Shown: piece by piece, positions 6,851 through 55,086 of the stretch
Numbering within the stretch: position 1 is the stretch's first letter
Layout: the number at the start of each line of letters is the position of its first letter
DNA from: Eledone cirrhosa
Taxonomy: Eukaryota
Direction of reading: 5' to 3'
DNA: 64,000 bases
Assembly: GCA_964016885.1 (NCBI GenBank)
Contig: OZ024740.1
Coordinates: forward strand, 13,268,001 to 13,332,000
Notes under the pieces: model-generated
The model's input: only the letters and a program-made list of their open reading frames with translations
Told to the model about the DNA's origin: nothing
Databases searched by the model: none
Translations under genes and position numbers: made by a program

Positions 6851-7040
6851 AGGAACGAGTAGGACCCCGACGGCTGAGCTCAAGCCGTTTCGACGGCTAA
6901 TTCTGGAATTAGCCGCCGAAACGGCTTGAGCTCAGCCGTCTTGGTCCTACTCGTTCCTATTATCAACTCTACTACCCTAAGTATTGAGGACTTTGGTGCG
7001 TTATGGTCCATCTGGTTCCTTACCACATTTCCTTCATTAT
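6851..7040 (+). mobile_element. Palindrome-plus-tail element (half-hammerhead fold-back family) in (TA)n
   Basis: ~110 bp near-perfect hairpin plus ~80 bp tail. Copies at 20716, 31381, 33021, 54989; partial at 1251. Confidence 0.85.
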
Positions 7041-7174
7041 ATATATATATATATATATATATATAGTAATAATAATAAATTTGAAGACTAAAATCCAAAG
7101 AGGGCTCGATAAGGATAAATATATATCAAATATATAAGAACCGTAGAGCAAATATTTATTAAAATAACAGATTA

Positions 7175-7226
7175 AAGTTTAAGCAAAGAATCGCTGCTTT
7201 CACCCTGAACGGGATCTTCTGAAACT
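7175..7226 (-). ncRNA. Hammerhead-like motif with U4A core (CAGAAGA)
   Basis: AGTTT-CAGAAGA-TCCC GTTCA GGGT-GAAA-GCA..TGC-TT-AAACT. The same core recurs in the inverted copy at ~10530-10577. Confidence 0.6.
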
Positions 7227-8159
7227 AACAAAGTCAATCTGTGAACGCAGAAGTGGATATTTCAAAAAACGTTGCAACCGGAGGAAGACAGGAAGACGAT
7301 ACTTTGATTCGTGGAAACGTTCCCTGGCAAAGAACGGGAAAAAAGAATATAATACGTCATTAATAGGAGTGGTGACAAACAATTACACGCAAAGACAGAA
7401 CCACGTTTATGGTATAAAAGAAGTCGTAGACTAATGTTCTCTTAGGTGGTTCATAGAGACGTTCTCTGGCAATGAACGGAAAAAACGAAGATAATACGTC
7501 ATATGTCGAGCGTGGAGAACAATTGCACGCAAAGACAAAACCACGTAAATGATATAGCAGAAGTCGTAGACTAAATTCTAACTAGGAAACCGAATGAATC
7601 TCCGCTTCAGAGTTAAGAATAATGTAAATAAATACAATAGAGGGGTAATAGAAATTAAATAAATGCATACACACATTCAAATACGTACATACACAAGCAT
7701 ACGCAAAACACTTGCCATAGGTATACAAAACCACGCACATATAAATATGTGTGTGTGTGTGCGTGTATACAAATAAATAATTAAATAAACGTATATAAAT
7801 AAATAAATACGTATATAACAAGCGCACCCACATACCTACATGTAAATACACAAATATTCGAAGACGTAAGTCAGCCAAAACATGAAGTACACATATACAC
7901 ACATCCTACATACGTACGAACCTGCATACACACGCAGACGCAAAACTCCCGTATACACATAACCAAACCATATGTACCAGAAAATATAAAAAATGTATAC
8001 GCCACAACATAATCAATCAAATATACGTATGAGAAAGTATACGTACCTTCACAAAACATACAGGTAATATATACTTACCTATGCAAATAAGTAATGGTAT
8101 AAACAAAACATATACTTAGCTACCACATCAAGACGTAAAAAATCCACGTATAGATCGTA

Positions 8160-52389: not shown

Positions 52390-53327
52390 TCCTGTGTCAG
52401 TGTTGAACAAAAAGGTGACGTGGTTGCCTTAACACCGTATGGCATAAATTCAGGCCGTTCAGTTTGTTTACAAACGAACAAAGCGGCGTTATAATAAGCG
52501 TCCGCTAAACTGATGCGTGCATATATGTATGTGTACCTGTATGTATATATGTATATATATATAAATATATATATATATATATATGCATGCTACTGTACGT
52601 CTGTATACATATATGTATGTACGTATACATACATACCTACATTTAAGTAAGTGCCATACTAAGAGTGAGAAATGAAATTTCGTTTTCATTTTTTTTCAAC
52701 TTAGATATATATATATATATATATATATATATATATATTTGAAAAGGGGAGTAAGGTTCTATAAAAAAATAAGGGTTATAGAGAAAAGGGGAATTGGAAA
52801 TAGCACGGAAATATATATTTAGGGTCTGTTTTTCTTTTTTTCTTCTTTGATTCGTCAAAGTGATATTATTGGAAAAATGAGAGGAACAATTCTTTTAAAA
52901 AGGAGTTTTATAATGTATATAAAGTATATAAAAAAATAACCGGTTTCTATGTATCAGTAAAATCCATTTTATCAAATGTTGAATATTACAATTAAAAAGA
53001 ATTAATAAGAGTTAAAAATCAAAGATTTAAAATTAAGTGTTGAGGCAGGTTTGTCCCTCTTTCTTGTTGAGAAGAAGACTGGATCTAAAATGGAATCATA
53101 TATATATAGAAAGAGAGGTCATCATAGTAGTAGTAGTAGTAGTAGTAGTAGTAGTAGTAGTAGTAGTAGTAGTTTATTTTTTCACACAGAACAAAATTAT
53201 TTTTAGGGAGAGGGAAATTTCTGTAAATATGTGTGTGTATCTCAATTGTGTTAATGGACTGGTCAAGAGTTCATATATATATATATATATATATATATAT
53301 ATATATATATATATATATATATATATA

Positions 53328-54915
53328 CAGTGCCCCGCAAAAGTTTACAACACATTAGGAAAAATGCGGTTTTAGGTATTTTTAATAAAGTTAGGGTAAT
53401 GAAAATTTAACTACCGATAGAACATATAATGAGGCATTTAATGATACAATCATAGTTTTAAAAAAATAACAAGGAAATAACTCATGAAGAAAAATCAATA
53501 TTTTTATAACGCAAAAGTTTACAACACATTTATTAAATCATCTCTTAATATTTCGTAGCGTAACCTTTGTTGCTAATTACACCCTGTAGGCGTTTGGAGT
53601 AGCCTCCTACAAACTTCTTGCATGTTTCTTGGCTAATATTTATCCATTCTTCACAACAAATTTTCTTTAGTTCAGGGATATTTTGGGGTTTCCTTTTTTG
53701 AATTCTCTCCACAAATTTTCGATCGGGTTAAGATCTGGAGACTGACATGGCCATTTTAGAACATTTATTCCATTCGTACTTAACCAAGATTGTGTTAGCT
53801 TTGCAGTATGTTTTGGATTGTTATCTTGTTGAAAAAACCAACCTGGCTTTAAGCTGAGAGAATGTGCACTTTGATGTAAATTCCTTTGGAAAATACCTCT
53901 ATAATAAGTGCCACCCATACTTCCTTCTATTATTTCAATATTTCCTACTCCTGTGGCACTAAATCAACCCCAGACCATGATTGATCCACCTCCAAATTTT
54001 ACAGTTGGAATAGTATTCTTCAGCGAATATTCAGTACCTTTCTTTCTCCAGACTTTTGCCACAGCATTTCGACCAAAATGTTCAATTTTTGTTTCGTCCG
54101 ACCAAAGTACATCTTCCCAAAATGACGCAGGTTTGATGAGATGCTCATTTGCAAAGTTTAATCGACGAAGAACGTGTTTCCTCGTAAGAAGTGGTGTTTT
54201 CCTTGGAGACCTCGAGAAGATATTATATCGACGAAGTGAACGACTAATTGTATCTGTGCTCACTTTTACTCCACTTTCTTCTAGGTCATCCTGAAGATTT
54301 TTAAGAGTACACCGGGGTTCGTTGCCAACCTTTCTCGTCAATAACCGAGCTGCACGTTCCGTTATCTTTCTAGGACAACCAGAACTAATTAGAGGACAGA
54401 TGGAATGATGAGATTTCCAGTGACGAATTATTGTACCAACTGAACTCAATGGCACATTTAACTGACAAGATATCTTTCTATAACCAACACCATTTGTATG
54501 AAGGTCTACAATGCGTTTACAGAGGTCTTGATCAATCAGTTTATTTTTCCCCATATTGTCCATGTTTACAGGACGGTTGTCAATGTTTACAGGATGGTTG
54601 TCAGACAAATAATGATGTAATGTTTTTAATAGTCCTTAGAAGTTACATTAAACCTAATCTAGAACATTCTACTGAATTTTAAATCTGAAAATTTAAGAAT
54701 TTTCATGAAAAAAAGCGATAAATATTTTTTGCGTTATAAAAATATTGATTTTTCTTCATGTGTTATTTCCTTGTTATTTTTCTAAAACTATGATTGTATC
54801 ATTAAATGCCTCATTATATGTTCTATCAGTGGTTAAATTTTCATTACCCTAACTTTATTAAAAATACCTAAAACTGCATTTTTCCTAATGTGTTGTAAAC
54901 TTTTGCGGGGCACTG
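53328..54915 (-). mobile_element. Tc1-family DNA transposon with ~185-200 bp TIRs, TA target
   Basis: TA|CAGTGCCCCGCAAAAGTTTACAACACATT ... AATGTGTTGTAAACTTTTGCGGGGCACTG|TA. Confidence 0.95.
53545..54554 (-). pseudogene. Tc1 DD34E transposase, disrupted
   Basis: MGK..., G.PRKIT, WSDETKI, GGGSIMVWG*, FQQDNNPKH, SPDLNPIENLW, ATKY*. One nonsense codon and frameshifts. Confidence 0.93.
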
Positions 54916-54988
54916 TATATATATATATATATATATATATATATATATATATATATATATATATATATATATATATATATATATATAT

Positions 54989-55086
54989 AACGAAGGAAGT
55001 GTGGTAAGGAACCAGGTGGACCATAACGCGTCCAGAAATACCCGTCGAAAGGGCTTGAGCTCTGCCGTCAGGGTCAAGCATTTTCA
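54989..55086. mobile_element. Rearranged copy of the half-hammerhead family (inverted tail joined to the loop II-3' half)
   Basis: Tail end in reverse, then CGTCCAGAAATACCCGTC-GAAA-GGGCTTGAGCTCTGCC-GTC-AGGGTC. Confidence 0.7.

What the first reader, a model, noticed from the sequence alone, without database searches (positions are those of the whole stretch)
6851..55086. Palindrome family formed by fold-back inside hammerhead stem-loop II
Seen: copies at 6851, 20716, 31381, 33021 and 54989 (diverged at 30400) share GCCGTC-GAAAC-GGCT TGAGCTC AGCC-GTC-GGGGTC. This is the 3' half of a hammerhead (stem II strand, GAAA, stem III, GUC, stem I strand), but the CUGANGA half is replaced by an inverted copy of the same 3' half. 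The symmetry centres differ between copies (TTCTG|GAATT, TTCC|CAGAATT, TTCTGT|ACAGAATT), and the 31381 copy keeps an intact A-GACGGC..GCCGTC stem-loop. Inference: reverse transcription repeatedly and independently stalls at stem-loop II, and the cDNA self-primes. This gives a mechanism for PLE 5' inversions and for MITE-like hairpins that do not come from DNA transposons.
Basis: partly seen in the sequence, partly recalled or inferred. Interest (0 to 1): 0.75.

Follow-up and report, generated by a model that had tools for sequence, protein, structure and literature searches.

The report
Twin-primed Penelope retrotransposon stubs
These hairpins are short head-to-head insertions of a very abundant Penelope-type jumping gene, and their junctions fit poorly with one DNA copy folding back on itself; they were likely made by two copying reactions that started from opposite ends of a DNA break and ran to the likely start of the element's RNA, which would explain how this class builds its mirror-image ends.

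Summary
The repeats are real. They are 5'-truncated insertions of a Hydra-type Penelope-like element (RT plus GIY-YIG, TA targets; a tail 29-mer has 35,509 exact genomic hits). The parent has a hammerhead 5' half, but it reads YUGANAA (U3-A8), not CUGANGA. Junctions do cluster in the 3' part of loop II, about 12-fold or more above background. Simple fold-back fails: one arm ends at site A (+43), the other at site B (about +120), yet the A arm often reaches further 5' than the arm it would have been copied from (47 of 69 clean copies incompatible, 8 non-overlapping). Five solo A arms end in the same zone, and the two inner ends are uncorrelated. Best model: two cDNAs primed from both target ends at A and B, joined by microhomology. 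The cluster likely marks a transcription start (Inr-like motif, excess non-parental G), but no RNA data were available and an RT stall is not excluded. Inverted copies with a one-sided tail, and self-priming as a hypothesis, are already in print. This scan found the same reading earlier on other DNA of this genome.

The parts
6849..6905 (-). Copy 1, A arm (site A +43 at the TA repeat, to -14/-16)
6906..7037 (+). Copy 1, B arm (-12 to site B; hammerhead 3' half plus tail of about 77 nt). The A arm reaches further 5', so tail-primed fold-back cannot give it
20714..20768 (-). Copy 2, A arm (+43 to -12)
20769..20903 (+). Copy 2, B arm (-15 to site B); geometry fits either model
30401..30563 (-). 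Diverged relative with the same two-arm layout; tail end cut short
31381..31517 (-). Copy 3, B arm (-17 to site B)
31518..31536 (.).
31537..31585 (+). Copy 3, A arm
33020..33079 (-). Copy 4, A arm (+43 to -17), sharing the 4-nt self-complementary GTAC centre at 33076-33079; carries a different subfamily allele after stem I than its B arm
33076..33212 (+). Copy 4, B arm (-17 to site B)
54990..55029 (-). Copy 5, B arm, only +80 to site B
55030..55086 (+). Copy 5, A arm (-17 to +43); does not overlap the B arm, so an inversion and not a palindrome
1253..1330 (-).

Best explanation
The repeats are 5'-truncated head-to-head insertions of a TA-targeting Penelope-like retrotransposon, likely made by two reverse transcriptions primed from the two ends of a cut in a TA repeat at two fixed internal RNA sites, with both cDNAs likely running off the RNA's predicted capped start and then likely joined by microhomology-mediated end joining. 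Shown: parent ORF with RT and GIY-YIG motifs; two fixed outer ends (A +43, B about +120) abutting TA repeats; A paired with B almost without exception; independent inner ends; a stop zone at -9 to -23; short microhomologies and templated inserts at junctions. Inferred: (1) the endonuclease opens both strands and both 3' ends prime; (2) one RNA, or two from one locus, is the template for both arms, which PLE RT could copy twice because it has no RNase H (recalled); (3) most template RNA starts at an Inr-like site at -18 (minor site near -22) inside loop II, so it lacks the hammerhead 5' half and cannot cut itself in cis; (4) the minority of long copies come from read-through RNA of tandem loci.
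For: Parent ORF and large inverted copies in L091-L095 and L098; the tail runs on into the ORF in L094. Tail-anchored sample (first 100 hits): 82 of 100 have an inverted arm within 45 nt; 64 of 82 end at +43 and most others at +37 to +45; 59 of 82 are incompatible with tail-primed fold-back. After dropping 13 of 82 with long inserts or unclear ends: 47 of 69 incompatible, 39 with A further 5', 18 with B further 5', 14 offset by 20 nt or more, 8 non-overlapping. Young subfamily (first 90 of 742 hits): 78 have a forward arm; outside 19 perfect GTAC centres, 41 of 59 are incompatible and 5 non-overlapping; 5 solo A arms run into TA at -14 to -18. Inner ends are uncorrelated (rho 0.18, p 0.24, n 45); the A end stays in the zone in 21 of 28 copies whose B arm stops early, against 45 of 50. 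Genome-wide, 608 hits have an A arm to -14 or beyond joined to a B arm lacking most of that overlap; some of these are internal deletions. No A-A pair among 30 plus 90 A-anchored loci; 1 B-B pair in 82. Stop rate 0.095 per nt at -9 to -23 against 0.003-0.008 downstream and 0-0.007 upstream. G at -19: 0 of 62 parents, 11 of 19 ends at -18, 44 of 100 purine-flanked genomic junctions against 13, 18 and 19 at the next three positions and 20 of 100 in a control at -15, p 4e-4. The perfect GTAC centre occurs on both tail haplotypes, so it arose more than once. In vitro, a PLE protein extends both target strands from two internal sites that bound the tail, and uncut RNA is the main template (PMC11167929, parts 1-2 of 4 read). 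The Penelope promoter with Inr lies in the pLTR (PMC2377424, passages).
Against: No RNA run holds the sequence, so the start site is untested directly. About a third of junctions (22 of 69; 18 of 59 plus the 19 GTAC centres) also fit fold-back. Later deletions at palindrome centres could create some A-longer cases; the young subfamily shows the same proportion, but de novo insertions were not seen. The highest end count is at -17 (49 of 201), not -18 (19 of 201), and 14 ends reach -22, some through chance microhomology. A nested hairpin in loop II, predicted in most parents, has its 3' strand at about -22 to -14 and could stall RT there. The -15 control for the G test is confounded by inverted-arm sequence, and 42 of 100 purine-flanked junctions are A runs. 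In vitro, PAc showed no strand difference in start-site use, whereas here A pairs strictly with B. Samples come from contigs C1-C2 only and need exact pattern matches.
Confidence: 0.68

Rival explanations
1. Twin priming as above, but the stop zone is an RT stall at the nested hairpin (or a bound protein) in loop II of a longer RNA, not an RNA 5' end.
For: Most parents of several subfamilies are predicted to fold a 4-8 bp inner hairpin whose 3' strand covers about -22 to -14. Ends spread over about 12 nt and not one base.
Against: The much stronger stems II and III downstream give no comparable peak. Non-parental G is enriched exactly at -19. Inr-like motifs put A at -18 and -22, and loose ends in public contigs fall at both places (L094 3283 and 3279).
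Confidence: 0.14
2. One reading: one tail-primed cDNA stalls in loop II, folds back and self-primes; the new arm is captured at site A; centres are later remodelled by deletion.
For: Arms of a copy share subfamily alleles (39 of 53 identical in the variable segment against 0.20 for random pairs; 58 of 73 young copies, 6 unreadable). Strict A+B pairing. 22 of 69 junctions fit. Self-priming was proposed for PLE palindromes in PMC3846280 (passages).
Against: 47 of 69 and 41 of 59 incompatible junctions; 13 non-overlapping pairs; solo A arms; uncorrelated inner ends; no excess of near-symmetric centres (10 observed, 11.2 expected); the mirror junction that fold-back cannot make occurs about as often as the one it can (3 against 4).
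Confidence: 0.1
3. A hairpin intermediate (self-primed on an antisense RNA, as proposed in PMC3846280) is trimmed by the endonuclease at A on one arm and B on the other, in either order.
For: It allows either arm to be longer at the centre and gives A+B pairing. PMC8557442 (passages) ascribes the tail to endonuclease resolution of an intermediate.
Against: It predicts correlated inner ends and a loop of at least 3 nt. Ends are uncorrelated and many offsets are 0-2 nt. Solo arms and the sense-strand G excess are unexplained. PMC11167929 shows the tail ends are RT start sites in vitro.
Confidence: 0.06
4. A fixed palindromic MITE or master hairpin copy that amplifies as a unit.
For: 19 of 78 young copies share one perfect centre; TA flanks.
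Against: Junctions differ in most copies; the shared centre sits on a self-complementary GTAC and on both tail haplotypes; the ends are asymmetric; the parent encodes an RT.
Confidence: 0.02

Closest known systems
Hydra clade of Penelope-like elements (PMC8557442; section 11 whole, passages, supplement hits)
   Same: C-terminal GIY-YIG, RWR/DKT/CxCx5C/CxxC/CxH motifs, no CCHH, TA targets, hammerhead in the terminal repeat.
   Different: Not Hydra-1_Obim: protein and hammerhead differ by inspection, and this family's motifs were not found in the supplement. Core is U3-A8 or C3-A8 with a loop II of about 40 nt, not canonical. Unit is longer (ORF about 720 aa, about 1.3 kb from ORF end to hammerhead); tail about 77 nt.
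EN+ PLE insertions with an inverted 5'-truncated copy and a one-sided 30-40 bp tail (PMC8557442, PMC3846280, PMC2377424; passages)
   Same: Head-to-head inverted copy, tail on one end only, palindromes at the junction, partial tandems.
   Different: Here most insertions are stubs of about 190 bp, and junction statistics argue against the self-priming proposed in PMC3846280.
PAc (Poseidon, Anolis) in vitro reaction (PMC11167929; parts 1-2 of 4 plus term search)
   Same: Two internal RT start sites bounding the tail, both target strands extended, AT-rich target, hammerhead cut not needed.
   Different: The text read does not link this to inverted copies ('inverted' occurs once, for a blocking group). 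PAc starts lie in the ORF without target homology and without strand preference; here both sites lie upstream of the ORF, are followed by TAT in the parent, and pair strictly A with B.
L1 twin priming (original paper recalled, not read; passages of bioRxiv 10.1101/2024.12.14.628481)
   Same: A cDNA on each end of the break, in inverted orientation, joined end to end.
   Different: In L1 the second primer site is variable, inversions are a minority and the arms do not overlap (recalled). Here both sites are fixed, inversion is the rule (82 of 100) and the arms usually overlap, so the same RNA stretch is copied twice.
PLE hammerheads with U3-A8 core (Schistosoma Cercyon; PMC4209133, passages)
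   Same: Type I topology, U3-A8 covariation, long helix II with an unpaired base near its 5' end, palindromic loop III.
   Different: Stable 5-6 bp stem III, a much longer loop II, and a C3-A8 minority; cleavage untested.

Membership tests
Penelope-like elements (EN+) | Single ORF with RT and GIY-YIG endonuclease | tested here: met
   YRDD and VIY..YIG motifs in natural copies L092 and L094. Pfam gave no hit at E 0.01 for either, so this rests on motifs and on likeness by eye to Hydra proteins.
Penelope-like elements (EN+) | Partial tandem (pLTR) and inverted 5'-truncated copies | tested here: met
   Tail continues into the ORF in L094 and in L207 and L304; kilobase inverted pairs in L091-L094.
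Penelope-like elements (EN+) | One-sided tail between two end sites | tested here: met
   Sites A (+43) and B (about +120), paired A+B; longer than the usual 30-40 bp.
Hydra clade | RWK-like, DKT, CxCx5C linker, CxxC and CxH, no CCHH | tested here: met
   RWR, DKT, CNCPDRSSC, CNLC, CKH found; no CX2-5CxxC; one Cys only inside the GIY-YIG core (definition).
Hydra clade | Insertion into (TA)n | tested here: met
   99 of 100 B ends and 77 of 82 A ends abut TA.
Hydra clade | Canonical hammerhead | tested here: not met
   Core is YUGANAA 6,629 times against YUGANGA 52; a variant hammerhead is present. Hence 'Hydra-type' and not a filed member.
Hydra clade | Generally short (<3 kb) | tested here: inconclusive
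   Estimate from two copies is about 3.5 kb; no complete copy was delimited.
Hydra clade | Phylogenetic placement of the RT | not tested
   Reference proteins were seen only as cut supplement text; no tree was built.
Type I hammerhead ribozyme | Three stems around the core | tested here: met
   In 32 distinct parent motifs stem I (4-5 bp in all but one), stem III (5-6 bp in all but two) and stem II (CGGCUA/UAGCCG) pair. The unconstrained fold of L094 does not give the hammerhead (z -1.18); Rfam found no hammerhead in the window.
Type I hammerhead ribozyme | Self-cleavage | not testable with these tools
   A pile-up of truncations at the cut (+23) was inconclusive.
MITE | Fixed terminal inverted repeats and uniform length | tested here: not met
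   Asymmetric ends and variable junctions.

The most novel reading that the evidence does not exclude
Penelope-like elements insert by obligate two-site twin priming on one RNA: a protein dimer primes the two target ends at two fixed sites with fixed roles, copies the same RNA stretch twice, and mostly copies only the capped 5' leader of its own mRNA. This seeds tens of thousands of promoter-bearing hairpin stubs, and the promoter sits inside the hammerhead's loop II so that the main template cannot self-cleave.
Probability: 0.4. Interest if true: 0.75.

Novelty: new member of a known kind. Interest (0 to 1): 0.5.

Why it matters
How PLEs form their inverted repeats is named as an open question in PMC8557442 (passage). 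This family has tens of thousands of junctions, and they discriminate between the published self-priming idea and two-ended priming. They link the in vitro result of PMC11167929 (both strands extended, two start sites) to the genomic architecture and give exact testable positions (A +43, B about +120, start at -18). The element class and its layout are known; what is added is junction-level evidence on mechanism. Searches found no paper mapping PLE inversion junctions or applying twin priming to PLEs, but the library lacks most subscription papers.

Tried and rejected
Search for CUGANGA parents: 42 hits; none of the 30 inspected was a parent. They were junction inserts, arm variants or another family's motif; 12 were seen only as listing lines. 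Rfam scan of the window: no hammerhead, only low-complexity miRNA matches. Pfam: no family for the parent ORF pieces. RNA runs: no RNA holder listed, which is no evidence on expression. No contig spanned a whole window copy. The first junction caller was misled by TA repeats and was replaced. A truncation peak at the ribozyme cut (+23): by eye about 18 of the 100 listed junctions against about 15 at +20, both confounded by microhomology; inconclusive. A doubled B-arm stop rate inside the A-arm zone (0.003 to 0.006-0.008) rests on few events and on some miscalls; not used. No clear DPE match at +28 to +32 by inspection against a recalled consensus. Target-site duplications cannot be read in TA repeats. 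Fixed MITE and assembly artefact were rejected as above. Replication/fusion foldback was rejected because the flanks beyond the TA repeats are not mirrored.
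Full report
Observation. The window lies in a 3.0-Gb TA-rich animal genome. The copies at 6849-7037, 20714-20903, 31381-31585 (-) and 33020-33212 are palindromes with an extra tail on one side, set between TA repeats. 30401-30563 (-) is a diverged relative and 1253-1330 (-) is a tail alone. The copy at 54990-55086 is an inversion whose arms do not overlap. 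A 29-nt tail pattern has 35,509 exact hits against 0 for the control; a short-arm pattern has 23,806. Positions below count from the G of GAAAC as 0.

Parent. A search for CUGANGA upstream of the 3' half gave 42 hits, and none of the 30 inspected was a parent. A longer palindrome (L002) led to the real upstream sequence. Ten 5-10 kb stretches around such copies showed, in six of them, RT and GIY-YIG reading frames, kilobase inverted copies and, in L094, the tail running on into the ORF. The protein has RWR, DKT, YRDD, CxCx5C, CxxC and CxH motifs and no CCHH, as defined for the Hydra clade (PMC8557442 section 11). By inspection it is related to but distinct from Hydra-1_Obim. Pfam found nothing and no tree was built. 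The hammerhead 5' half reads (A/G)CCCC-YUGANAA-GNUCGGCUA, then a loop of about 40 nt, then UAGCCGUC-GAAAC. YUGANAA has 6,629 hits and YUGANGA 52. U3-A8 is a known PLE variant (PMC4209133, passages). So GCCGTC is indeed the stem II 3' strand, but the '31381 intact stem-loop' is a duplicated junction piece.

Two fixed outer ends. In the first 100 tail hits, 99 tails abut TA at site B (about +120). 82 have an inverted arm within 45 nt, 64 of them ending at +43 (site A) and most others within a few bases; 77 of 82 abut TA. Among 30 general and 90 young A-anchored loci there is no A-A pair; one of 82 is B-B. This matches the known one-sided tail, which PMC11167929 (parts 1-2 of 4) shows to be the stretch between two internal RT start sites in a reaction that extends both target strands.

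Fold-back test. A cDNA primed at B that folds back can only copy what it already holds, so the short arm must start at least 3 nt downstream of the long arm's inner end. Giving all ambiguous bases to that model, 23 of 82 fit and 59 do not. Dropping 13 copies with long inserts or unclear ends leaves 22 against 47, with 14 offset by 20 nt or more and 8 not overlapping. In the young subfamily (first 90 of 742 hits), 78 have a forward arm: 19 share a perfect centre on the self-complementary GTAC and, of the other 59, 18 fit and 41 do not, 5 without overlap. The GTAC centre occurs on both tail haplotypes, so it recurs. Five A arms run straight into TA at -14 to -18 with no tail arm. Inner ends are uncorrelated (rho 0.18, p 0.24, n 45), and the A end stays in the zone in 21 of 28 copies whose B arm stops early. 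Public contigs of one sample show the same A-arm-to-tail joints. Shared alleles only show a common template or locus. Junctions carry 0-7 nt microhomology and repeated templated inserts, which resemble theta-type end joining (recalled).

Why loop II. The stop rate is 0.095 per nt from -9 to -23, against 0.003-0.008 downstream and 0-0.007 upstream; 7 of 100 tail arms pass -130. The zone lies beyond the 3' strand of stem II, not at its base. Its upstream edge has Inr-like motifs (consensus recalled) with A at -18 and -22, and the best-supported 5' loose ends in public contigs include those two places. A cap copied by RT would leave a G at -19. Parents have none (0 of 62); 11 of 19 ends at -18 do; among purine-flanked genomic junctions 44 of 100 do, against 13, 18 and 19 at the next positions and 20 of 100 at a control site. 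Against this: no RNA run was listed, the modal end is -17, the control is confounded, and a nested hairpin in loop II could stall RT at the same place. The Penelope promoter with Inr lies in the pLTR (PMC2377424, passages), which fits. A peak at the ribozyme cut was inconclusive.

Mechanism. Most likely the protein cuts both strands of a TA repeat, primes one end at A and the other at B, and both cDNAs run to the RNA's start or stop short; host end joining links them head to head (0.68). An RNA starting at -18 lacks the hammerhead 5' half and so would stay uncut, which explains copying across the cut site (inference). Rivals: stall instead of start site (0.14), fold-back with later deletion (0.10), trimmed hairpin intermediate (0.06), MITE (0.02).

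Comparison and novelty. Inverted truncated copies and one-sided tails are standard for PLEs (PMC8557442, passages), and self-priming was already proposed for their palindromes (PMC3846280, passages). The closest mechanism is L1 twin priming (recalled; passages), but here both sites are fixed, inversion is the rule and arms overlap. Searches found no paper that maps such junctions or applies twin priming to PLEs; subscription papers are mostly missing from the library, and supplements other than that of PMC8557442 were not read. Earlier notes of this scan reached the same reading on other DNA of this genome (none near this window). My reading was written before that look-up; the notes are unchecked and are not counted as support.

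Verdict. A real feature and a new Hydra-type family of a known kind. Interest 0.5.

Noticed in passing
window 55686-58277 (-), motif near 55476 (-); sister pieces 5637-6687 (-), motif near 11935 (+): A different Penelope-type element with an 863-aa RT and GIY-YIG frame, an upstream frame at 58211-59218 and a CUGAAGA hammerhead-like motif.
   Followed up: partly
window 8160-10083 (-): Degraded Hydra-type PLE of another family, 52% identical to this family's protein over 149 aa.
   Followed up: partly
window 30602-30784/31047-31229, 31819-31909/32047-32137, 22147-22497/22741-23091, 50340-50528/51193-51385: Further inverted pairs of other families; CTGATGA at 32030 lies beside one of them. Possibly the same kind of insertion.
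   Followed up: no
window 53964-54635 (-): Tc1/mariner-like transposase fragment, named from recall of the motif pattern.
   Followed up: no
L096 2702-5056 (+): Uninterrupted 785-aa Hydra-like ORF of another family with a partial tandem and an inverted copy.
   Followed up: no
L031, L189, L232, L237; 42 of 100 listed hits: Long A or T runs at some junctions near -18, of unknown origin (slippage or tailing).
   Followed up: no
positions -7..-1 and +16..+22 of the family (L118, L186, L190; listing): The direct repeat AGCCGTC causes recurrent internal deletions, and AGCCGU-CGAA-ACGGCU forms a hairpin that competes with stem III.
   Followed up: partly
window 33020-33212; L002; L003: The two arms carry different subfamily alleles in the segment after stem I, which suggests rare two-RNA events or later gene conversion.
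   Followed up: partly
L133, L140, L184, L277: Family copies inserted next to or into other copies within the same TA repeat.
   Followed up: no
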